Position numbers and translations under genes: made by a program
Shown here: positions 5,646 to 60,604 of the stretch, one piece after another
Layout of the letters: each line of letters begins with the position of its first letter
How positions within the stretch are numbered: the stretch's first letter is position 1
The notes under the pieces: model-generated
The model's input: the letters and a program-made list of their open reading frames with translations, nothing else
Databases searched by the model: none
Told to the model about the DNA's origin: nothing
Assembly (NCBI GenBank): GCA_964524915.1
Contig: CAZGEB010000002.1
Coordinates: 5,094 to 69,093 of the forward strand
Origin: an uncultured Candidatus Saccharibacteria bacterium
GTDB taxonomy: Bacteria > Patescibacteriota > Doudnabacteria > UBA920
Direction of reading: 5' to 3'
Length of the DNA stretch: 64,000 nucleotides

Positions 5646-6903
5646 TATCAAATTTCTAATTTCTAAAAAACACGCAGCGCTGGCGATAATTATGGCCACT
5701 TGCATCATTATCACAATGGTCGGCTTTTATTTATTTCAAAATAATAAATCTCCTCTCCCCACCTCCAATGCCTCAATAGACACCCTTGAAGATGCGTGGG
5801 CCGTAGCCGCACAAAATATTAAAGATACAAACCAAACAACTGAAGTGACCTTCTTGGCAGTTGGAGATATTTCCCTTTCTCGTAATATCGCCTACACTAT
5901 CCAAAAAAATGGCAACGACCCAGACTACCCGTTTCGTAACATCTCTGCACTCCTCAAATCCACTGATTTTAATTTTGGTAATCTAGAAACTCCTTTTTCA
6001 TCTAGCGATAGGTTTACCCCAAGCAATACTCTAGTATTTAATGCGCCAAAGCTTAATGTCAAAGGCTTGGTAGATAACAATTTTAAAATTCTCAACCTAG
6101 CCAACAACCACTCTTTTGACCAAGGCATGGACGGCATCCGTACTACACAAAAAGTTCTCAAGGAAAACGACATTCAGTTTATGGGCACAGGAGAAAGCCT
6201 GGATGAATCATGGCAGCCTGCAATCATAGAAAAAAATGGAATCAAAATTGGCTTTATCGGCGCATCCTATGCTTCTATAAATGATGGCGGAAAATCTACA
6301 AACAACTTCGTCTCACGTATAGAAGACATTTCCCATCTTCAACTCGCAATTCGTAATACTAAACTCGTAGCAGATTTTCTAGTAGTTACCATGCACGCAG
6401 GCACAGAATACACCACCAAACCAAATCAATCTCAAATAGATTTTGCGCATGCAGCAATTGATGCTGGTGCAGACATGGTCATTGGCGCTCATCCCCACTG
6501 GGTACAAGAAAAAGAAATATATTGCCCGAAATCAGTTTCCTCCCCTGTCCAAGGGGAGGCTAGGTGGGGTGAAAATTCTGCGCAACTCGCAAATTCAAAT
6601 GAATTCACAGAACCTAAACAAACAAATTGTAAACCCATTTATTATTCTCTAGGTAATTTTATTTTTGATCAATCTTGGAGTAAGGAAACCACAGAGGGTT
6701 TGGCTTTAAAGATTACATTAAACAAAACTGTTTCTTCTCTATCCCCTAGTGAGGGGAAAGATGGCTTGCCCGCCAGTGAAAGGCTCTGGCAGGCAGGAGA
6801 TGGGTTGTATGAAAATAATTCACCCACCACTATAAAATCCTTAGAAGAAATTCCTATAAAAATAGAAAACAACTGCTGCGCAGTTGTCTCAAAAAAAGAA
6901 TAA
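5638..6903 (+). CDS. CapA/PgsA-family metallophosphatase (poly-gamma-glutamate capsule synthesis-like)
   Basis: LAVGDISLSR..NFGNLETP..VVTMHAGTEYT..GADMVIGAHPHWVQ. The C-terminal part carries two GC-rich palindromic in-frame insertions. Confidence 0.75.
   Translation: MSNIKFLISKKHAALAIIMATCIIITMVGFYLFQNNKSPLPTSNASIDTLEDAWAVAAQNIKDTNQTTEVTFLAVGDISLSRNIAYTIQKNGNDPDYPFRNISALLKSTDFNFGNLETPFSSSDRFTPSNTLVFNAPKLNVKGLVDNNFKILNLANNHSFDQGMDGIRTTQKVLKENDIQFMGTGESLDESWQPAIIEKNGIKIGFIGASYASINDGGKSTNNFVSRIEDISHLQLAIRNTKLVADFLVVTMHAGTEYTTKPNQSQIDFAHAAIDAGADMVIGAHPHWVQEKEIYCPKSVSSPVQGEARWGENSAQLANSNEFTEPKQTNCKPIYYSLGNFIFDQSWSKETTEGLALKITLNKTVSSLSPSEGKDGLPASERLWQAGDGLYENNSPTTIKSLEEIPIKIENNCCAVVSKKE
6529..6580. 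repeat. GC-rich palindromic element (cctcccc-tgtccaa-ggggagg) in frame inside capA-like CDS
   Basis: Inverted repeat CCTCCCC/GGGGAGG in a 38% GC gene; encodes SSPVQGEARWGE. Confidence 0.5.
6741..6765. repeat. GC-rich palindromic element (tcccct-agtg-agggga) in frame inside capA-like CDS
   Basis: Perfect 6-bp inverted repeat with a 4-nt loop; encodes LSPSEGK. Confidence 0.45.
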
Positions 6904-9685: not shown

Positions 9686-9925
9686 ATAAGGCGCTATTTT
9701 ATATGTCACTCATTCGAGACTTCCGGGAAGCCATGGTAAATGCGAGGAAGATTATAGAAACCAAAAAAGAAATTACAATTTTAAGAAGAGAAAATTAAAT
9801 ATTAAGCCAGAAGATAAAGGCGTTAGAGCCCATCGAATTAGAAAAAATAGACGGCGTCTGGACAAGCACAAGAGAAACATCACCAAGACCAACAAAATCA
9901 TAACTAACTAGTAGCACAAATAAAC

Positions 9926-9954
9926 AACCCCTGAAACTTCAGGGGTTGTTTTGG
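9926..9954. terminator. bidirectional intrinsic terminator between topA(+) and the 9964 ORF(-)
   Basis: aacccctgaaacttcaggggtt is a perfect 8-bp G/C stem, followed by gttttgg. Confidence 0.6.
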
Positions 9955-9963
9955 TTATAAAAT

Positions 9964-10266
9964 TTATTCTTTTTCTGTTTTTGCTCCAGATGGCAAAAAT
10001 CTTCCAAGCCACACAGAAACCAAAGCAGCGATAACAGTTATCAATGCAGCATAACCGATTTCTCCTACCAAAGAATCACCATGGAAAAATCTTTCAAACA
10101 AATGATGCAAAGCTTTGTCCCAAGCGAGAGCAGCAATGAGTCCCACCGCAGCAATAACTAAAAAAATAATCCTTTGCATCACACTCAAATACACATGCCT
10201 GACTTCATGCTTTTCCAAAAACTTCTCTAGTTCTGCGACTATGATTTTCTGCTCACTATCCAACAT
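9964..10266 (-). CDS. hypothetical small membrane protein
   Basis: 100 aa with two predicted TM helices (IIFLVIAAVGLIAALA, YAALITVIAALVSVWL). Confidence 0.45.
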   Translation of the reverse strand: MLDSEQKIIVAELEKFLEKHEVRHVYLSVMQRIIFLVIAAVGLIAALAWDKALHHLFERFFHGDSLVGEIGYAALITVIAALVSVWLGRFLPSGAKTEKE

Positions 10267-10299
10267 AAAAAATTAATATTTTACCTCCGTGCTATTCTT

Positions 10300-10509
10300 T
10301 TAATCTTCTAGATCCCCAAGAGTGCTTGTGGGGCTGGCTGTTATCTCTTTATGGCCGCCAAAACTAGGCCACTTTGCTTTAACCGAAACTCCAGTTTGTT
10401 TAGCTAATTCAATCAATTTTTGAGCAAAGTTTTTAAAACTATCATCATAGCCAAACTCAATTTCAGCGGATAATCCACTAACCTTCATATATATTATAGA
10501 AAATAGCAA
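10300..10509 (-). CDS. hypothetical protein
   Basis: 69-aa ORF immediately upstream of tRNA-Lys. No motif. Confidence 0.3.
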   Translation of the reverse strand: MLFSIIYMKVSGLSAEIEFGYDDSFKNFAQKLIELAKQTGVSVKAKWPSFGGHKEITASPTSTLGDLED

Positions 10510-10510
10510 A

Positions 10511-10588
10511 TGGTGGGTTCGCCGGGGATCGAACCCGGGACCGTTGGCTTAAGAGGCCACTGCTCTACCAGCTGAGCTACGAACCCGC
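10511..10588 (-). tRNA. tRNA-Lys (anticodon CTT), CCA encoded
   Basis: Reverse complement GCGGGTTCGTAGCTCAGCTGGTAGAGCAGTGGC-CTCTTAA-GCCAACGGTCCCGGGTTCGATCCCCGGCGAACCCACCA. Cloverleaf with a G27:A43 mismatch; anticodon loop CTCTTAA. Confidence 0.85.
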
Positions 10589-11447: not shown

Positions 11448-12377
11448 ATGCAAAATTTCGTACCCCAATCCACCGGCGATTTCGAGCTTTTAGATTCAGG
11501 CATGTCCATGCGCCTAGAGAAATGGGGGCAGTATACTTTGTCACGCCCAGACCCACAAGCCATTTGGCAACCTTCTCTTCCCAAAGAAGAATGGGAAAAA
11601 GCTGATGCGGTTTTTGACGATGGCTGGAAAATAAAAAATAAAATCCAGCAACCTTGGGTGTATAAGTACAACCTCTCTGCCCCAATCAAAGCATCGGGGC
11701 ATCTCCCCTCACAAGGAGAGAGTATAAGGTTGTTCGCAAGGCTCACGGCTTTTAAACACACTGGTATTTTTCCAGAGCAAGCCTACAACTGGCAATGGCT
11801 TTCCCACAAGCTAAAAGCTATAAGCTATAAGCTAAAAATCCTCAACCTCTTCGCTTACACAGGTGCTACCACTTGTCTACTAGCTAGCCTTGGCTGCCAG
11901 GTAACTCATGTTGATGCATCAAAACCCTCTATTGAGTGGGCGAAAAATAATGCGAAGCTGAATAATCTCCCAGAAGATAGTATCCGCTGGATTTTAGATG
12001 ATGCGGCCAAGTTTGTAAAAAGAGAAATTAGGCGTGGGGCCGAGTACGACGGCATCATCATGGACCCGCCTGCTTTTGGGCACTCCCCTAGTGGTAAAAC
12101 TTGGAAATTTTCAGAAAATTTACCAGAACTGCTTTCCGATTGCATAAAGCTCTTGAGCCCACATGCACAATTTTTGATAATCAATGCCTACGCCACCAAC
12201 ACTTCTAGCATTGCGCTACAAAATTTATTAGAAGACAGCTTGCCCCCTCCCCTTCTGAGGGGAGGGTTGGGGAGGGGTGGTATTGAATCAGGCGAACTTT
12301 TACTTGAGCAAAAAAATAAACGCCTGCTATCCACAGGCATTCTCGCTAGATGGTCAAAACACACTAATCACAACTAA
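11448..12377 (+). CDS. class I SAM-dependent methyltransferase (RlmI/RlmK-like rRNA methyltransferase fold)
   Basis: FAYTGATTCLLASLGCQVTHVDASK...DGIIMDPPAFG. Carries an in-frame heptamer repeat (11806-11835) and a GC-rich palindromic insertion (12241-12290). Confidence 0.7.
   Translation: MQNFVPQSTGDFELLDSGMSMRLEKWGQYTLSRPDPQAIWQPSLPKEEWEKADAVFDDGWKIKNKIQQPWVYKYNLSAPIKASGHLPSQGESIRLFARLTAFKHTGIFPEQAYNWQWLSHKLKAISYKLKILNLFAYTGATTCLLASLGCQVTHVDASKPSIEWAKNNAKLNNLPEDSIRWILDDAAKFVKREIRRGAEYDGIIMDPPAFGHSPSGKTWKFSENLPELLSDCIKLLSPHAQFLIINAYATNTSSIALQNLLEDSLPPPLLRGGLGRGGIESGELLLEQKNKRLLSTGILARWSKHTNHN
12241..12290. repeat. GC-rich palindromic element (ccccctcccc-ttctg-aggggaggg-tt-ggggagggg) in frame in methyltransferase CDS
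   Basis: Reverse orientation of the CCCTCCCCTCAGAAGGGGAGGGG core. Encodes PPPLLRGGLGRGG. Confidence 0.6.
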
Positions 12378-27639: not shown

Positions 27640-28536
27640 TTATAACGAATCTCGAATTTTCTTTAAGATTTTTACATCCTCTTTCACTCTATCATGATCA
27701 GTTTCCAAAATCAATGGAAAAGTAATGTCATTCTTACTCTTTGAGAGAAGACTGTCAAGAGCTTTCAAAAAGGCCATTATTCCAGCCTTTCCAAGCTTCC
27801 CTTGCCCTATATGTTCATGCCTATCTTTGTGACTACCTAGCTCCACTTTACTGTCATTTACGTGCGACATGCGTAGAAACTTCAGTCCAATAATTTTATC
27901 AAACTGTTTCAAAACTTCGAGCGCTGATTTTTCTGTACGCAAATCATAACCGCTACCAAAAGCATGCTGAGTATCAAAACAAATTCCCCCAAAACCTTTT
28001 TTGCCAACTAGCGGCTTCATCAAATCTCTAACTTCTTCAAAAGTATCGCCCAAGACAGCTCCCGCACCTGCAGAAATTTCTATAAGCAACTCTGTAGTGC
28101 CTTTGTAATTTTTCAAAACTTCCACCAAACCTTTTTGTGCTTGCGCAAATCCTTTTTCTTCATTGTCTTTTAAACTTCCCGGATGGAACATGACAAACTT
28201 TGCACCCAGCAATGTGCCACGCTCCAATTCATCTCGCACTATAGCAATAGAAGATTTATAAGTAGCGGGCTTTGGTGAACCAAAGTTGATGTAATAAGGC
28301 GCATGAATAACAAAGCACGCCCCCTCTCCTTTTGAGGAGAGGGATGGGGAGAGGTTGTATTTCCCAGTCTCCCCTCTAAACTGTTCCAAAACTTCTTTGG
28401 TCAATTTCGGAGCTGGACCTCCCTGAGGTGAACGAGAAAATATTTGAAAAGTCTCGCAGCCCAAAGCCGCCGCCATTTTCGGCGCATTAAATACTCCTCC
28501 CGCAATACTCACATGACAACCTATTTGAAATTTCAT
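27640..28536 (-). CDS. nfo: endonuclease IV (AP endonuclease, Nfo)
   Basis: MKFQIGCHVSIAGG..HAPYYINFGSP..LIEISAGAG..FDTQHAFGSGYDL..HVNDSK. Carries an in-frame GC-rich palindromic insertion (28321-28385) encoding GETGKYNLSPSLSSKGEGA. Confidence 0.85.
   Translation of the reverse strand: MKFQIGCHVSIAGGVFNAPKMAAALGCETFQIFSRSPQGGPAPKLTKEVLEQFRGETGKYNLSPSLSSKGEGACFVIHAPYYINFGSPKPATYKSSIAIVRDELERGTLLGAKFVMFHPGSLKDNEEKGFAQAQKGLVEVLKNYKGTTELLIEISAGAGAVLGDTFEEVRDLMKPLVGKKGFGGICFDTQHAFGSGYDLRTEKSALEVLKQFDKIIGLKFLRMSHVNDSKVELGSHKDRHEHIGQGKLGKAGIMAFLKALDSLLSKSKNDITFPLILETDHDRVKEDVKILKKIRDSL
28321..28385. repeat. GC-rich palindromic element (CCCCTCTCC-TTTTG-AGGAGAGGG-AT-GGGGAGAGG...CTCCCCTCT) inside nfo
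   Basis: Inverted G/C arms in an AT-rich gene; the reading frame is maintained. Confidence 0.6.
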
Positions 28537-28988
28537 AATTTTTCCTTTACCCCCTCCCCTTTCTGCGAGTTCGCCGAAGCTTTAGCGTAGGAGAATGAGG
28601 GGAGGGTTGGGGAGGGGTTGGTTACTACTTGTTTAATAACCTCCAGCACTCCTTCTAAATTTTTATCAATCTCATTATTCCAAAAATGTAAAACAATGTA
28701 GCCTTGCGATTCCAAAAATTCTTGTTTCTGATTATCTGTAAATTTACCACTGGCCTCATTATGTTGACTACCATCCAACTCAATAGCCAACTTTTTGGCT
28801 CGACAAGAAAAATCAACAATCACAGCACCGATTTGTACTTGGCGCTTAAATTGTAAGCCTAAAAAACGATGGGCTCGCAGACGTGACCACAGCTTCGCCT
28901 CCCAAGGAGTTTGAGACTTACGAAGTTGTCGGGAATAAGACAAATAAGGCTCATGAACAAGTCGTTTTGGCATACTTTCATTATACAA
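28533..28988 (-). CDS. DUF559 endonuclease-domain protein (Vsr/restriction-endonuclease-like fold)
   Basis: LRK..T..E..LW..LR...GLQFKRQVQIGAVIVDFSC...LAIELDGSQH...VLHFWNNEI. Its C-terminal ~25 aa are encoded by the GC-rich element at 28549-28625. Confidence 0.6.
   Translation of the reverse strand: MYNESMPKRLVHEPYLSYSRQLRKSQTPWEAKLWSRLRAHRFLGLQFKRQVQIGAVIVDFSCRAKKLAIELDGSQHNEASGKFTDNQKQEFLESQGYIVLHFWNNEIDKNLEGVLEVIKQVVTNPSPTLPSFSYAKASANSQKGEGVKEKL
28549..28625. repeat. GC-rich palindromic element with long loop (CCCCTCCCC...GAGGGGAGGG-TT-GGGGAGGGG)
   Basis: The loop contains cgccgaagctttagcgtagg, which recurs between the two tRNA-Lys genes (10770-10790). Confidence 0.6.
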
Positions 28989-29040
28989 CCCCTCCCTTGA
29001 TCCCTCCCCTCAGAAGGGGAGGGGTTTAAGACACAAACTG
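28981..29040. repeat. GC-rich palindromic element (CCCCTCCC-TTGAT-CCCTCCCC-TCAGAA-GGGGAGGGG) between the DUF559 and M16 peptidase genes
   Basis: Canonical copy of the family, at the 5' end of the DUF559 gene and over the C-terminal codons and stop of the M16 peptidase gene (29026). Confidence 0.6.
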
Positions 29041-30291
29041 TTTAAACTTCTTCTCGTCCTTAAAAGGACCTAAAACCACCATGGACATTTTGTTTTTTTG
29101 GAAAAGTTCTTTGGCAACATCTTTTACTTGCTTTGCGGTTACCGCGTCCACGCGAGCAAAGGCTTCTTCTGGAGTGCGAATTTGTTTTTTAAAAGCCGCT
29201 TGTTCCAGCACCCAGTCTAGTCTAGTTTGATTATCTTCCAAGGCCAAAGCAGTTTTTCCTTTCAAATACTCTTTGGCTTTTTTCATTTCCTCCTCACCAA
29301 CTATTTCTTCCGAAATACGCTTGAGTTCTGCCAAAATTACAGAGATAGCCTCATCGCATTTCTCCACGCGCACTCCCGACATTACTCCAAATTCCCCCAC
29401 ATCTTGATATGAATTAGGTGATGCCACCACATAATATGCCAAGCCTCTTTTTTGTCTGACCTCTTCCCAAAGCCTAGAGGACATACCGCCACTCAAGATA
29501 GCAGACAAAACTGCCGTAGCAGGCCCTCGCTTGTCGTCATTTGGAAAACCTTTAAAACCAATACAAACAACTGCTTGCTCATTTTCTTTGTAAATGACTT
29601 TGAGACGTGGCTTTGTTTGTTTGTCTTTGGCTTTTTCCCAGCCACCGCCTTTTTTCTTTTTGACACTTCCCCAATATTTTTTAATCAAAGAATCCAATTC
29701 TCTTTCGTCAAAATTTCCAGACACCCCAATCAACATATTGGTAGTCTGGTAATGCCTTTGCATGTACTCTCTAAAATCTTTTGCGGTAAATTTTTGAATG
29801 GTTTTTTTGTAACCAATAATCTCTCTTCCTAAATGATCTTTTTGCCACATGAGTTTATCCAGGGCTTCTGCTGCGACATTTGTCGGCTGATCCTTGCCCA
29901 TATTCAACTCTTCTATGATCACACCTTTTTCTTTTTCCATCTCCACCTCGTCCAAAAGTGGATTTTGCACCATATCTGTCAAAATATCAAAGATCAAAGC
30001 CAAATGCTTGCCGCGAGTTTTTATAAAAAACTGTGTGTGCTCTTTTCCAGTATTGGCATTGAAGTCGCCACCCAAGCCATCTACTACAGCATTAATAGCC
30101 AAAGGGCTTGGATATTTTTTTGTACCTTTAAATAAAAAGTGCTCTAAAAAATGAGAAATCCCAGCTTCTTTTTCAGACTCACTCCTTGAGCCAGTTTTCA
30201 CAAAAATATCCACGACCACGCTTTCAGTGTCCCTACTTGGAACCTTGATAATTGTCAGTCCATTTGCCAAAACTTGTTTTGTGTAATGCAT
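29026..30291 (-). CDS. M16-family zinc peptidase (insulinase/pitrilysin-like)
   Basis: Inverted zinc motif HFLEHFLFKGT (HxxEH). Confidence 0.85.
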   Translation of the reverse strand: MHYTKQVLANGLTIIKVPSRDTESVVVDIFVKTGSRSESEKEAGISHFLEHFLFKGTKKYPSPLAINAVVDGLGGDFNANTGKEHTQFFIKTRGKHLALIFDILTDMVQNPLLDEVEMEKEKGVIIEELNMGKDQPTNVAAEALDKLMWQKDHLGREIIGYKKTIQKFTAKDFREYMQRHYQTTNMLIGVSGNFDERELDSLIKKYWGSVKKKKGGGWEKAKDKQTKPRLKVIYKENEQAVVCIGFKGFPNDDKRGPATAVLSAILSGGMSSRLWEEVRQKRGLAYYVVASPNSYQDVGEFGVMSGVRVEKCDEAISVILAELKRISEEIVGEEEMKKAKEYLKGKTALALEDNQTRLDWVLEQAAFKKQIRTPEEAFARVDAVTAKQVKDVAKELFQKNKMSMVVLGPFKDEKKFKQFVS

Positions 30292-31295: not shown

Positions 31296-31595
31296 TTACC
31301 ACTCTAGACTTAAATCTTTCCAACTAGGATTCATTTGTTTTATTAAAAATTCTTTTTTCTCCCTACGCCAACCCTTCAGTTGTTTTTCTCTGATAATGGC
31401 TGATTCAATATTTTCAGTCTCTTCAAAGAAAATCAATTTATGACAATTGTATCTTTTAGTAAATCCTTCTAGTAAATTATTTTTATGCTCGTACACTCTT
31501 CTGACTAAATCATTTGTCACACCAACATACAAAGTCCCGCTCGTACTTGCCATAATATAAACATAATAAAATCTATTTTGCATAATGCAAACCAT
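31296..31595 (-). CDS. GIY-YIG nuclease-domain protein (UPF0213-like)
   Basis: FYYVYIMASTSGTLYVGVTNDLVRRVYEHK...EKQLKGWRREKK. Confidence 0.75.
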   Translation of the reverse strand: MVCIMQNRFYYVYIMASTSGTLYVGVTNDLVRRVYEHKNNLLEGFTKRYNCHKLIFFEETENIESAIIREKQLKGWRREKKEFLIKQMNPSWKDLSLEW

Positions 31596-59278: not shown

Positions 59279-60604
59279 ATGACCAAACTTAAACCCTCCA
59301 AAAAAACCATTTATTTAGACCACGCGGCTACTACCCCAATCCGCGAAGAAGTCTTGCGCGTGATGAAGCCATATTTTGCAGAAAAATTTGGTAACCCTTC
59401 TAGTCTTTACAAGCTGGGAGTAGAAGCAAAGAATGCAATAGAGGATGCTAGAAAATCTATTGCGGAGAATCTAAACGCCAGAGCAGAAGAAATCATTTTT
59501 ACCGCTGGAGGTAGTGAGAGTGTAAATTTGGGAATACTTGGAGTTGCCAAGAATCACAAAGCAAAACAACCTCTCTCTATCTCTCCCCTCACAAGGCGAG
59601 AAAACCGGAAAAGAACGCACGGACACATCATCACTTCCAAAATAGAGCATCATGCTGTATTAAATACATTAGAACAACTGGAAAAAGAGGGCTTTGCCGT
59701 GACACAAATCAGTGTGGACAATGAAGGTTTTTTTGATATTGAAGAATTTAAAAAAGCTATCCGCCCAGATACTTTTCTGGTAAGTCTCATGTACGCCAAT
59801 AATGAAATAGGCACCATAGAGCCTATCCGTGAAATTTCAAAAATAATCAAACAGGAAAATCTACACCGCTTCCAACTAAAAACTAAAAACTCTCAACTAA
59901 AAACCCCCATCCTCCTCCACACCGACGCCTGCCAAGCAGCTGGCTTTTTGGATCTAAATGTGCAAAGACTTGGCGTGGACCTAATGAGCATCAATGCCAG
60001 TAAAATCTACGGCCCCAAACAAATTGGTTGCTTGTATGCAAAAAAAGGGATCGCCCTCTCCCCTATTATTTTTGGGGGCGGGCAAGAAAGAAATCTCAGG
60101 AGCGGTACAGAGAATGTTGCAGGCATAGTTGGTTTTGCTAAAGCTTTGGAATTGGCGGCTTTGGAAAGAGATAAAGAGGTACAGAGACTAGAGAAATTAA
60201 GGGATTATTTATTTAAAGAAATAATTAAAATAAATAAAAACTCTGTTTTAAATGGTCCGAGTATCGCAAATACAACCTCTCCCCTAACCCCTCTCCTCAG
60301 AAGGCGAGGGGAAACAGGTCGCCGCCTACCAAATAATTTAAATATTACATTTCCAAATGCTGAAGGTGAAGCGCTCATGCTTTACTTGGATGCTTACAAT
60401 ATCGCAGTTTCCACAGGGAGCGCCTGCACGGCCTACGAAACTGACCCTTCTCATGTACTGAAAGCTGTTGGGTTAAGCGATGAGGATGCCAAATCTAGCC
60501 TGCGCATCACATTGGGAAAATCTACCAACAAAAAAGATTTAGAGTACTTTATAAAAGCCCTCAAAGAAACTCTCGAAATAGTTTCAAAAAATACAGTTGC
60601 GTAA
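59279..60604 (+). CDS. iscS: cysteine desulfurase (IscS/NifS family) carrying two in-frame repeat insertions
   Basis: LDHAATTP, PLP-Lys SINASKIYGPKQIG, active Cys STGSACTA. Insertions at 59571-59610 (SISPLTRRENRKRT) and 60271-60320 (TSPLTPLLRRRGETGRRL). Confidence 0.9.
   Translation: MTKLKPSKKTIYLDHAATTPIREEVLRVMKPYFAEKFGNPSSLYKLGVEAKNAIEDARKSIAENLNARAEEIIFTAGGSESVNLGILGVAKNHKAKQPLSISPLTRRENRKRTHGHIITSKIEHHAVLNTLEQLEKEGFAVTQISVDNEGFFDIEEFKKAIRPDTFLVSLMYANNEIGTIEPIREISKIIKQENLHRFQLKTKNSQLKTPILLHTDACQAAGFLDLNVQRLGVDLMSINASKIYGPKQIGCLYAKKGIALSPIIFGGGQERNLRSGTENVAGIVGFAKALELAALERDKEVQRLEKLRDYLFKEIIKINKNSVLNGPSIANTTSPLTPLLRRRGETGRRLPNNLNITFPNAEGEALMLYLDAYNIAVSTGSACTAYETDPSHVLKAVGLSDEDAKSSLRITLGKSTNKKDLEYFIKALKETLEIVSKNTVA
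59571..59610. repeat. degenerate GC-rich palindromic element (CTCTCCCC-TCACAA-GGCGAG) in frame in iscS
   Basis: Related to CCCTCCCCTCAGAAGGGGAGGG. Confidence 0.5.
60271..60320. repeat. GC-rich palindromic element (CTCTCCCCT-AA-CCCCTCTCC-TCAGAA-GGCGAGGGG) in frame in iscS
   Basis: Same TCAGAAGG loop as the 28981 copy. Confidence 0.6.

What the first reader, a model, noticed from the sequence alone, without database searches (positions are those of the whole stretch)
28533..29040. DUF559 endonuclease gene bracketed by two copies of the GC-rich element: a candidate mobilising nuclease
The DUF559 ORF (Vsr/PD-(D/E)xK-like fold, LRK..T..E..LW...IELDG..H) sits between copy 28981-29040 at its 5' end and copy 28549-28625, which encodes its last ~25 codons. 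It is wedged between nfo (stop overlaps its start) and the M16 peptidase. A nuclease gene flanked by the very element that is spreading through the genome resembles homing-endonuclease or MITE-transposase relationships. DUF559 proteins are poorly characterised.
Basis: inference. Interest (0 to 1): 0.7.

Follow-up and report, generated by a model that had tools for sequence, protein, structure and literature searches.

The report
Nuclease gene bracketed by BoxC repeats
A small DUF559 nuclease gene sits between two inverted copies of a GC-rich repeat known for about 30 years (BoxC/PIT/"triplex motif") with no known origin, and the same pairing recurs in most bacterial phyla, so this nuclease is the first concrete candidate for the enzyme behind these repeats.

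Summary
A 146-aa DUF559 (YcjD-type, Vsr/EDxHD-like) nuclease gene at 28533-28973(-) is bracketed by two inverted copies of a GC-rich three-block repeat. Together they form a 477-bp cassette (28549-29025) wedged between the M16 peptidase stop codon and the nfo ribosome-binding site.

The repeat is the known BoxC/PIT/"TM-ECO" triplex-motif element, whose origin and function are unknown. Related genomes have M16 and nfo directly adjacent. One close relative has the cassette, another has unrelated DNA, and one distant relative has only a repeat doublet at that junction.

In 72 DUF559 loci from about 15 phyla, 58 have the repeat within 150 nt of the gene and 33 have it on both sides. Among 743 control ORFs the figures are 25 and 0 (p about 1e-55 and 1e-39). 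An independent set of loci gave 14 of 14.

Single repeats also insert in frame into genes, four or five times in this window. I found no paper that links DUF559 with these repeats.

Best reading: a selfish nuclease-repeat system that resembles REP/RAYT or homing-endonuclease systems. The nuclease's action on the repeat is inferred, not shown. E. coli strains that keep 12-23 repeats without ycjD show that the repeats persist without the gene.

The parts
28549..29025 (-). The whole cassette: repeat, DUF559 gene, inverted repeat (477 bp). It fills the space between the M16 stop codon and the nfo ribosome-binding site.
   Evidence: Sequence. Absent from the same junction in L091, L093, L096, L104, L106 and L111. 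Present in close relative L168 and replaced by unrelated DNA in close relative L167.
28533..28973 (-). DUF559 (YcjD-type, Vsr/EDxHD-like PD-(D/E)xK) nuclease CDS, 146 aa. An alternative TTG start lies at 28988. Residues ~118-146 are encoded by the downstream repeat.
   Evidence: Pfam PF04480 E=9.5e-36. Identical to P0001. Profile match to PDB 3HRL E=1e-37 and to 3R3P E=1.4e-4. The invariant residues E25, E65, D67, H71 and D80 are present.
28983..29025 (-). Upstream repeat (BoxC/PIT/TM type). On the gene strand it reads: 9-bp hairpin CCCTCCCCT/AGGGGAGGG with a 4-nt loop, 5-nt spacer, third block GGGAGGGG, tail TTGTAT. It abuts the M16 stop codon.
28549..28625 (-). Downstream repeat in inverted orientation (third block, then hairpin, on the gene strand). 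The hairpin loop is enlarged to 37 nt. It is translated as the C-terminal tail of DUF559.
   Evidence: (relaxed detector). Its 22-mer is identical to the solo copy at 12257-12278.
28320..28360 (.). Solo copy of the repeat inserted in frame inside nfo. It encodes ...LSPSLSSKGEGAC...
   Evidence: The alignment of nfo orthologues shows an insert of about 10 aa that is absent from L087, L091, L092, L093, L096 and others.
12242..12283 (.). Solo copy in frame inside a SAM-methyltransferase-like ORF (11448..12377). It encodes ...PPPLLRGGLGRGG...
60270..60311 (.). Solo copy in frame inside the cysteine desulfurase ORF (59279..60604).
59562..59603 (.). Degenerate solo copy in frame inside the same cysteine desulfurase ORF.
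   Evidence: (families D6, I3).
27640..28536 (-). nfo (deoxyribonuclease IV), the downstream flank of the insertion site. Its ATG overlaps the DUF559 stop.
29026..30291 (-). M16 peptidase gene, the upstream flank of the insertion site.

Best explanation
Segment 28549-29025 is a discrete, horizontally spreading selfish cassette. It consists of a YcjD-type DUF559 endonuclease gene lodged between an inverted pair of BoxC/PIT/TM repeats. It has been inserted into the M16-nfo junction of an operon.

Nuclease and repeat form one system. The nuclease most likely recognises the repeat, either as sequence or in its hairpin/triplex form, and nicks or cuts in or next to it. Repair of that break from another copy would then copy the gene into repeat doublets (homing-like spread). 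It would also copy the 35-45-bp repeats to new sites as non-autonomous units, including in frame into genes.

Shown here: the architecture, its recurrence across phyla, presence/absence at one site, matching terminal repeats within a cassette, empty doublets that retain cassette ends, and independent insertion of single repeats.

Inferred: nuclease activity, its target, and the copying mechanism.
For: (1) Association. 58 of 72 DUF559 loci from about 15 phyla have a repeat within 150 nt of the gene, and 33 of 72 have one on both sides. Among 743 other ORFs in the same contigs the figures are 25 and 0 (Fisher p=5e-55 and 5e-39). Background density of the repeat is 0.078 per kb. An independent set found with a core-only query gave 14 of 14 adjacent and 9 of 14 on both sides.

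(2) The two repeats of one cassette share arm type in 35 of 47 cases, against 36% expected by chance. Their loops are often identical or near-identical, so they are true terminal inverted repeats.

(3) The spacing of inverted repeat pairs is bimodal: 7-41 nt (14 empty doublets) or 312-517 nt (26 pairs that hold DUF559). Empty doublets in L043, L056 and L085 keep the cassette's leader and trailer, including the first 8 nt of the ORF in L056.

(4) The site is polymorphic. M16 and nfo are adjacent in at least 6 relatives. L092 has a doublet only. L168 has the cassette. L167 has unrelated DNA. The relatives L093 and L106 carry their cassettes at another locus.

(5) Single repeats insert on their own into coding loops of nfo, independently in several lineages.

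(6) The catalytic motif is intact, and the family is related to the intron homing endonuclease I-Bth0305I (3R3P, E=1.4e-4).

(7) Between-phylum protein identity (49%) is about the same as within-class identity (50-54%), and Deinococcus copies that are 88-91% identical lie at different junctions of one operon. Both point to horizontal or local mobility.

(8) In two betaproteobacterial MAGs, two DUF559 lineages coexist, each with its own third-block variant (GGAGAGGG or GGTGAGGG).

(9) In E. coli all 37 sampled ycjD+ genomes hold 17-32 repeat places, and every genome with 5 or fewer lacks ycjD. Holder et al. report 29 copies in strain 55989 and 1 in IHE3034.
Against: - No biochemical evidence exists for any YcjD-type protein.
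- A PD-(D/E)xK nuclease cannot by itself join DNA strands.
- There is no target-site duplication.
- Covariation between protein clade and repeat type is weak overall: 54% against 50% identity within a host class, and 50% against 49% between classes.
- 11 of 21 sampled ycjD-less E. coli chromosomes, O157:H7 among them, still hold 12-23 repeat places. The repeats therefore do not need the gene to persist, and the E. coli correlation is confounded by phylogroup.
- Two opposite architectures exist (third blocks facing the gene, or hairpins facing it), which no simple model predicts.
- The top-80 loci were ranked with a query that included the repeat-encoded tail. This is a mild bias for the downstream side only.
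- The genes are rare on plasmids (45 of 72,556 records) and phages (2 of 50,697), so the vehicle of horizontal spread is unknown.
Confidence: 0.55

Rival explanations
1. Passenger or homing-only model. The DUF559 gene is a free-standing homing-type selfish gene. It uses pre-existing repeat doublets as multi-copy landing pads with built-in homology arms. The repeats themselves spread by an unrelated mechanism, such as replication slippage, template switching or another enzyme.
For: The gene always lies in the centre of an inverted repeat pair, in either orientation of the pair. Doublets of both orientations are common without the gene (36 and 44 neighbouring pairs). Empty doublets look like unoccupied sites whose leader and trailer are contiguous. 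Repeats persist in E. coli without ycjD. The family is related to the EDxHD homing endonucleases.
Against: It leaves the spread of single repeats into genes without any enzyme. It does not explain why the two lineage-specific third-block variants track two DUF559 lineages within one genome. YcjD-type proteins lack the long DNA-binding extension of I-Bth0305I.
Confidence: 0.2
2. Housekeeping model. DUF559 is a host repair nuclease, either Vsr-like mismatch repair or a structure-specific nuclease that resolves hairpin/triplex DNA. Its linkage with the repeats reflects co-selection or regulation, not mobility.
For: The fold is Vsr-like. A DUF559-domain protein of Caulobacter (VsrA) causes DNA damage when a cytosine methyltransferase is deleted and is proposed to be a mismatch-repair enzyme (PMC12907096). 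TM repeats stall polymerases in vitro and are linked with genome instability (PMC4666352).
Against: The Vsr model TIGR00632 scores 16 bits against a cut-off of 98. No cytosine methyltransferase gene is adjacent to the gene in the window. A housekeeping gene would not be an indel at a conserved operon junction. It would not sit in frame inside other genes. It would not be equally diverged within and between phyla.
Confidence: 0.1
3. Cis-element model. The repeats are regulatory or insulating parts of the nuclease gene (terminators, mRNA stabilisers, expression brakes for a toxic product). Solo copies are relics of decayed cassettes.
For: The hairpins bracket the transcript. Many ORFs read into them. 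E. coli ycjD is followed by a decayed second 3' fragment plus repeats.
Against: Solo copies of about 40 bp lie in frame inside essential-type genes, where a 480-bp cassette could hardly have been tolerated first. PIT elements showed no promoter or terminator activity in earlier work, as cited in PMC4666352. No terminator-like T tract or promoter-like site was found at the two copies that flank the gene; the single terminator-like hit in the scanned region lies in the solo copy inside nfo.
Confidence: 0.08
4. The bracket arose by chance or is an assembly artefact.
For: Contigs of this population often break at the repeats (L003, L005).
Against: The same cassette occurs in six independent assemblies and in L168. 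Statistics across phyla give p<1e-38.
Confidence: 0.01

Closest known systems
BoxC / PIT / TM-ECO intrastrand-triplex repeats (Bachellier et al. 1990s; Hoyne & Maher 2000; Holder et al. 2015, PMC4666352)
   Same: The same three-block anatomy and nearly the same sequence: CCCTCNCCC-N3-6-GGGNGAGGG-N3-GGGNGAGGG. They are frequently found as inverted pairs, are conserved across distant bacteria, and are linked with local genome instability.
   Different: Published work found them 'always intergenic' in E. coli, found no associated mobility genes, and does not mention DUF559. Here most copies are a CCCCTCCCC variant with a TTGTAT tail. Four or five of them lie in frame inside genes, and two bracket a nuclease gene.
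REP/REPIN elements and their RAYT (Y1 HUH) transposases
   Same: A dispersed short GC-rich hairpin repeat. A small nuclease gene is flanked by two inverted copies of that repeat. Singlets and inverted doublets occur. There is no target-site duplication.
   Different: The enzyme fold and chemistry differ (PD-(D/E)xK/Vsr-like, not HUH tyrosine). The repeat has a third block. Its sequence is conserved across phyla and does not co-diverge with species. Several divergent copies can occur per genome.
EDxHD homing endonucleases (I-Bth0305I, PDB 3R3P) and Vsr
   Same: The catalytic core is homologous (profile E=1.4e-4 to 3R3P). The gene shows presence/absence polymorphism at conserved sites. It is a selfish-gene-like small ORF.
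   Different: It is not inside a group I intron or an intein (no Rfam hit). It lacks the N-terminal DNA-binding half. It is flanked by repeats, not by exon halves. It does not score as Vsr.
E. coli YcjD and N. gonorrhoeae NGO0050 (PDB 3HRL)
   Same: The same protein family (E=1e-37 to 3HRL). Both loci also have BoxC/TM-type repeats beside the gene. ycjD is an indel between sapF and fabI (PMC12817139).
   Different: Those genes are annotated as domains of unknown function, with no link to repeats. In E. coli the flanking repeats are partly decayed.
Rickettsia palindromic elements (RPE) and MITEs
   Same: Short palindromic repeats that insert in frame into protein-coding genes (RPE). Relation between autonomous and non-autonomous copies, with shared terminal inverted repeats (MITEs).
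   Different: No DDE transposase and no target-site duplication. Unlike RPEs, a candidate enzyme is physically linked to the repeat.

Membership tests
DUF559 (PF04480), YcjD-type | Scores above the Pfam gathering threshold | tested here: met
   122.4 bits against a cut-off of 20.6, E=9.5e-36, residues 17-122.
DUF559 (PF04480), YcjD-type | Conserved catalytic-type residues (E...D-F...E-x-D-G-x2-H...D) and homology to the solved DUF559 structure | tested here: met
   E25, F55, E65, D67, G68, H71 and D80 are invariant in 36 sequences. 3HRL matches at E=1e-37.
DUF559 (PF04480), YcjD-type | Nuclease activity | not testable with these tools
   The library I searched holds no biochemical assay of a YcjD-type protein; only genetic evidence for Caulobacter VsrA.
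Vsr very-short-patch repair endonuclease | Match to TIGR00632 above its cut-off | tested here: not met
   16.3 bits against a cut-off of 97.85.
Vsr very-short-patch repair endonuclease | Genetic linkage with a cytosine-5 methyltransferase | tested here: not met
   The neighbours are the M16 peptidase and nfo.
EDxHD homing endonuclease (I-Bth0305I type) | Homologous catalytic domain | tested here: met
   Profile hit to 3R3P, E=1.4e-4. Weak PHROG and PADLOC 'homing endonuclease' hits.
EDxHD homing endonuclease (I-Bth0305I type) | Encoded within a group I intron or an intein | tested here: not met
   No Rfam family in 28200-29200. The gene is free-standing between two genes. Even where it is in frame in a host gene (L035, L048) there is no intein domain; only repeat-encoded linkers lie on each side.
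EDxHD homing endonuclease (I-Bth0305I type) | Occupied and empty alleles of one conserved site | tested here: met
   Empty doublets with contiguous leader and trailer.
BoxC / PIT / TM-ECO repeat | Three blocks: a C-rich arm, its complement after a 3-6-nt loop, and a direct repeat of the G-rich arm after about 3 nt | tested here: met
   The copy inside nfo (CCCTCTCC-TTTTGA-GGAGAGGG-AT-GGGGAGAGG) fits the published consensus. The other copies are a CCCCTCCCC variant.
BoxC / PIT / TM-ECO repeat | Intergenic location (as reported for E. coli) | tested here: not met
   Four or five copies in the window lie in frame inside ORFs.
BoxC / PIT / TM-ECO repeat | Forms an intrastrand triplex | not testable with these tools
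   Only the hairpin part can be computed. Triplex formation in vitro was shown for the E. coli consensus in PMC4666352.
REP/RAYT system | The gene is flanked by two inverted copies of the dispersed repeat | tested here: met
REP/RAYT system | The enzyme is an IS200/IS605-like Y1 HUH transposase | tested here: not met
   The Pfam and NCBIfam scans return only DUF559 and its Vsr-like relatives (weak, below-cut-off matches to MTES_1575 and Vsr), with no Y1 transposase match.
MITE plus autonomous transposon | Terminal inverted repeats shared by long (coding) and short (non-coding) forms | tested here: met
   Bimodal spacing. Shared leader and trailer.
MITE plus autonomous transposon | Target-site duplication of fixed length | tested here: not met
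   The distribution of longest common flanking strings equals the null, apart from 5 outliers: L083 (46 nt), L043 (42 nt, itself repeat sequence), L075, L029 and L062.

The most novel reading that the evidence does not exclude
YcjD-type DUF559 nucleases are the long-missing enzymes of the BoxC/PIT/triplex-motif repeats. Together they would form a pan-bacterial selfish system in which a Vsr-fold nuclease recognises a hairpin/triplex-forming repeat and drives its copying through host repair. The repeats, and even the whole nuclease cassette, can settle in frame inside protein-coding genes. This would be a second repeat-nuclease partnership, mechanistically distinct from REP/RAYT.
Probability: 0.5. 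Interest if true: 0.9.

Novelty: new variant of a known kind. Interest (0 to 1): 0.8.

Why it matters
BoxC/PIT/TM repeats have been known since the 1990s. They occur in hundreds of genomes with an unusually conserved sequence, form triplex DNA in vitro and mark unstable genome regions. Yet no origin, enzyme or function has been assigned, and the 2015 survey states that no mobility genes were ever found near them.

DUF559/YcjD is an abundant orphan family with a solved structure and no known role. Linking the two gives each a testable function, and E. coli K-12 carries both (ycjD and 23 BoxC copies).

If the link holds, it adds a second class of repeat-nuclease symbiosis beside REP/RAYT. It would explain a source of genome instability. 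It would also explain the GC-rich peptide inserts (PSPxLPxxGEG-like) that appear in many annotated proteins.

Tried and rejected
- Target-site duplications flanking the cassettes: none beyond chance, apart from isolated cases such as L083 with 46 nt.
- Covariation of protein clade with repeat type across 80 loci: only 1-4 percentage points of identity, confounded by host. I use it only as a weak hint.
- Rfam families over the cassette: none. Promoter-like and terminator-like sites: none at the two flanking copies; the one terminator-like hit is in the solo copy inside nfo.
- Defence-system membership: only weak domain-level PADLOC hits (DpdF 3e-5). Rejected.
- Plasmids or phages as carriers: 45 of 72,556 plasmid records, many of them chromids or mislabelled chromosomes, and 2 of 50,697 phages. 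Not the usual vehicles.
- Close relatives in the GTDB genome set: best DUF559 identity only 54%, so the species itself is not represented. The organism was not identified; the syntenic relatives come from groundwater and soil metagenomes, and the only named kin among the DUF559 hits are Patescibacteria MAGs (inference).
- A clean E. coli correlation: ycjD+ genomes always have many repeats, but half of the ycjD- genomes do too, so the test is inconclusive and confounded by phylogroup.
- The annotated record of CP178308 could not be fetched; a K-12-type genome was used in its place.
- Structure prediction was not run, because the homology to 3HRL is unambiguous.
Full report
**1.

The ORF at 28533..28988(-) exists. 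Starting at the ATG at 28973 it encodes 146 aa, identical to the database protein P0001. It matches Pfam DUF559 at E=9.5e-36 over residues 17-122.

Its stop overlaps the start of nfo as ATGA (nfo 27640..28536; TIGR00587 E=2e-63). The stop codon of the M16 peptidase gene (29026-29028) touches the upstream repeat.

The two flanking repeats have the same anatomy in inverted orientation.
- Upstream, 28983-29025, read on the gene strand: a 9-bp hairpin (CCCTCCCCT / AGGGGAGGG, 4-nt loop), a 5-nt spacer, a third block GGGAGGGG that repeats the G-rich arm, and a tail TTGTAT.
- Downstream, 28549-28625: tail, third block, then a hairpin whose loop is enlarged to 37 nt. This copy is translated as the last ~25 codons of the ORF.

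The repeat is far above chance. GGGGAGRGG occurs 10 times against 0.61 expected. A 22-mer is identical at 12257 and 28597, with a third copy at 3 mismatches, against 0 expected. The hairpins fold at -10 to -12 kcal/mol as DNA.

**2. The element is a known orphan repeat.**

A full-text search for its core sequence led to Holder et al. 2015 (PMC4666352). The consensus CCCTCNCCC-N3-6-GGGNGAGGG-N3-GGGNGAGGG is the BoxC repeat of E. coli, later called the PIT element and then TM-ECO.

That paper reports the following.
- 23 copies in K-12 and 3,610 copies in 262 proteobacterial genomes.
- Triplex formation in vitro.
- Excess rearrangement around the copies.

It states that no promoter or terminator activity, no pattern in flanking genes, and 'never ... 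transposases or integrases' were found. DUF559 does not occur in that paper. None of the 25 papers that mention DUF559, the 17 that mention ycjD, or the hits for COG2852 and PF04480 concerns repeats. Surveys of E. coli repeat families list BoxC without any associated gene.

**3. The cassette is an insertion.**

The gene order M16, nfo, small ORF, AI-2E transporter is conserved in metagenomic relatives with 50-64% nfo identity. The M16-nfo junction varies among them.
- In L091, L093, L096, L104, L106 and L111 the two genes are 2-37 nt apart, with AT-rich spacers, no repeat and no DUF559. L103 and L119 have spacers of about 90 nt, also without repeat or DUF559.
- L092 has, at exactly this junction, a repeat doublet with about 14 nt between the blocks and no gene.
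- Other relatives carry unrelated cargo there: NUDIX-like, glyoxalase-like and toxin-antitoxin-like ORFs.

Two relatives whose nfo is at least 90% identical differ from each other. L168 has the same cassette. L167 has an unrelated 89-codon ORF with no repeats.

L093 and L106 have empty M16-nfo sites but carry DUF559 cassettes elsewhere, behind an aminoacyl-tRNA-synthetase-like gene. Those copies too are flanked by repeat variants.

**4. The pairing recurs across Bacteria.**

A scan of one genome per GTDB species with a DUF559 alignment returned 596 confirmed loci. I kept the best 80. They come from Melainabacteria, Patescibacteria, Alpha-, Beta-, Gamma- and Zetaproteobacteria, Nitrospirota, Planctomycetota, Deinococcota, Bacteroidota, Elusimicrobiota, Chloroflexota, Desulfuromonadota and others.

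By eye almost all show the same three-block repeat on both sides of the gene. I then used a sequence-neutral detector: an 8-bp C-rich stem with at most 1 mismatch, plus a third block.

| Measure | DUF559 loci (72 with both flanks) | Other ORFs in the same contigs (743) |
|---|---|---|
| Repeat within 150 nt of a gene end | 58 | 25 |
| Repeat at both ends | 33 | 0 |

Relaxed settings raise the first figure to 69 of 72. Background density is 0.078 per kb. Fisher tests give p=5e-55 and p=5e-39.

One caveat applies. The loci were ranked with a query that included the repeat-encoded tail, which could favour downstream repeats. The upstream figure alone (48 of 72) is free of this bias.

A second set was found with the 117-aa core only, in the plasmid collection. 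By eye, 14 of 14 loci have an adjacent repeat and 9 of 14 have one on both sides. This set includes N. gonorrhoeae, the source of the 3HRL structure.

**5. Anatomy of the system.**
- The two repeats of a cassette share arm type in 35 of 47 cases (36% expected by chance), and often have identical or near-identical loops. They are copies of each other.
- Two architectures exist. The third blocks face the gene in most loci (25 by the strict detector, 37 by the relaxed one). The hairpins face the gene in 9 to 18 loci, consistently so in Deinococcus and Synechocystis.
- The spacing of inverted pairs with blocks facing inward is bimodal: 7-41 nt (14 empty doublets) or 312-517 nt (26 pairs with DUF559).
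- In L043, L056 and L085 the short spacer of the empty doublet consists of the cassette's own leader and trailer. In L056 it holds ATGAAAAC, the first 8 nt of the ORF. These are therefore either internal-deletion derivatives or unoccupied sites.
- There is no target-site duplication.

**6. Single repeats move on their own, into genes.**

In the window the solo copies at 12242-12283, 28320-28360, 59562-59603 and 60270-60311 lie in frame inside a methyltransferase-like ORF, nfo, and a cysteine desulfurase (the last two). A possible fifth copy at 6539-6569 lies in a CapA-like ORF.

The nfo alignment shows an insert of about 10 aa here that most orthologues lack. L098, L101 and L106 have independent repeat-derived inserts in the same loop, and several relatives have them near the C terminus.

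In two gut MAGs (L035, L048) the entire cassette is one uninterrupted reading frame with an M14-peptidase-like host gene. The repeats serve as linkers.

**7. The protein.**
- The profile of 36 homologues hits PDB 3HRL (a DUF559 protein) at E=1e-37, and 3R3P at E=1.4e-4. 3R3P is the catalytic domain of the intron homing endonuclease I-Bth0305I of the EDxHD family (family assignment as cited in PMC9403480).
- E25, E65, D67, H71 and D80 are invariant.
- It is not Vsr by the NCBIfam cut-off.
- A DUF559-domain protein of Caulobacter damages DNA in vivo (PMC12907096). That shows such proteins can be active, but that protein is proposed to act in mismatch repair.
- Identity between phyla (49%) is about equal to identity within a class (50-54%).
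- Deinococcus copies that are 88-91% identical occupy different junctions of the hpa operon.
- Two divergent lineages coexist in each of two betaproteobacterial MAGs, each lineage with its own third-block variant.

**8. The E. coli test.**

ycjD lies between sapF and fabI, where other phylogroups have eefRABCD (PMC12817139). It is present in 3,378 of 5,426 complete genomes.

In K-12 it ends in a partial repeat. It is followed by a decayed second 3' fragment of a DUF559 gene and then by a perfect BoxC.

Repeat places per genome range from 1 to 32, with a median of 18. A spread sample from a combined query gave the following.
- All 37 ycjD+ genomes hold 17-32 places.
- Of 21 ycjD- chromosomes, 10 hold 2-5 places and 11 hold 12-23 (O157:H7 holds 15).

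The hrpB-mrcB doublet is present in 3,536 genomes and missing in the rest. Holder et al. give 29 copies for strain 55989 and 1 for IHE3034.

The correlation therefore exists but is confounded by phylogroup, and the repeats clearly persist without ycjD.

**9. Interpretation.**

The data establish a physical and evolutionary unit of nuclease gene plus inverted repeats that inserts, decays to doublets and spreads horizontally. They also establish that single repeats insert independently.

I commit to the reading that the nuclease acts on the repeat, and that break repair copies both the cassette and the repeats. This is like homing, or like REP/RAYT, but with a Vsr-fold enzyme. My confidence is 0.55.

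The rivals are:
- a homing-only passenger gene that uses doublets as landing pads (0.2);
- a housekeeping repair or structure-specific nuclease (0.1);
- repeats as cis-regulatory parts of the gene, with solo copies as relics (0.08);
- chance or artefact (0.01).

Catalysis, target and copying mechanism are inferences. The assays that would decide are listed under next steps.

**10. Novelty.**

Both parts are known, and the logic has precedents (REP/RAYT, homing endonucleases, MITEs). The link between DUF559/YcjD and BoxC/PIT/TM repeats is not in any paper I could search. That library excludes most subscription journals.

I rate it a new variant of a known kind with high interest. It turns an open question about 30 years old into experiments that can be done directly in E. 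coli K-12.

Noticed in passing
window 12242-12283, 28320-28360, 59562-59603, 60270-60311 (and possibly 6539-6569): All solo copies of the GC-rich repeat in this window lie in frame inside protein-coding ORFs: a SAM-methyltransferase-like gene, nfo, a cysteine desulfurase (twice), and perhaps a CapA-like gene. This resembles Rickettsia palindromic elements. BoxC was reported as always intergenic in E. coli.
   Followed up: partly
L035:1250-2150 and L048:9700-10650: In two gut MAGs the whole cassette (repeat, DUF559, repeat) is inserted in frame in an M14-peptidase-like gene, between the HGDEPQGK and LFIPCLNPDG motifs. The result is one uninterrupted ORF with repeat-encoded linkers and no intein domain.
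   Followed up: partly
L175:1150-2250, L176:1200-2300, L182: In Synechocystis plasmids the DUF559 cassette sits inside DNA methyltransferase genes (BREX pglX in L175, DUF1156 in L176), and the host reading frame is broken. In Picosynechococcus (L182) it lies directly upstream of a DUF1156 gene.
   Followed up: no
L087-L166, the M16-nfo junction (window 28537-29025): This intergenic junction is a hot spot in the lineage. Different relatives carry NUDIX-like, glyoxalase-like, PIN/HicAB-type toxin-antitoxin or nucleotidyltransferase/HEPN-like ORFs there. Others have none.
   Followed up: partly
L098, L101, L103, L104, L106 (nfo genes): nfo orthologues of several relatives carry independent repeat-derived inserts in the same surface loop and near the C terminus.
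   Followed up: partly
L083:~9880-10520; L174:~1810-2000: A 46-nt duplication of the carB 5' end flanks one alphaproteobacterial cassette. A 17-nt direct repeat flanks a repeat doublet in Photobacterium. These are isolated cases that may hint at how insertions arise.
   Followed up: no
L015, L024, L026, L083: In Sphingomonadales and another alphaproteobacterium the cassette lies at the same place, directly upstream of the carB start, in four species.
   Followed up: no
L170:2860-3090 (E. coli K-12-type ycjD locus): ycjD is followed by a decayed second copy of a DUF559 3' end and a perfect BoxC. The ycjD-less strains H125-H129 still match this fragment (query positions 351-568).
   Followed up: partly
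window 2617, 11808, 13721, 23895, 32515, 34658, 40245, 47197, 47471, 59874: There are many short tandem arrays with a 7-nt period and 3-5 copies, with different units (for example GAGTTGC, CTATAAG, CCTCACT). Some lie inside ORFs. They are unrelated to the GC-rich repeat.
   Followed up: no
window 31296-31595 (-): A small GIY-YIG nuclease ORF (99 aa) lies about 2 kb from the cassette. It is conserved in the close relatives L001 and L167.
   Followed up: no
L003, L005 (contig ends): Assemblies of this population often break at the repeats that flank DUF559, as expected for a dispersed repeat.
   Followed up: no
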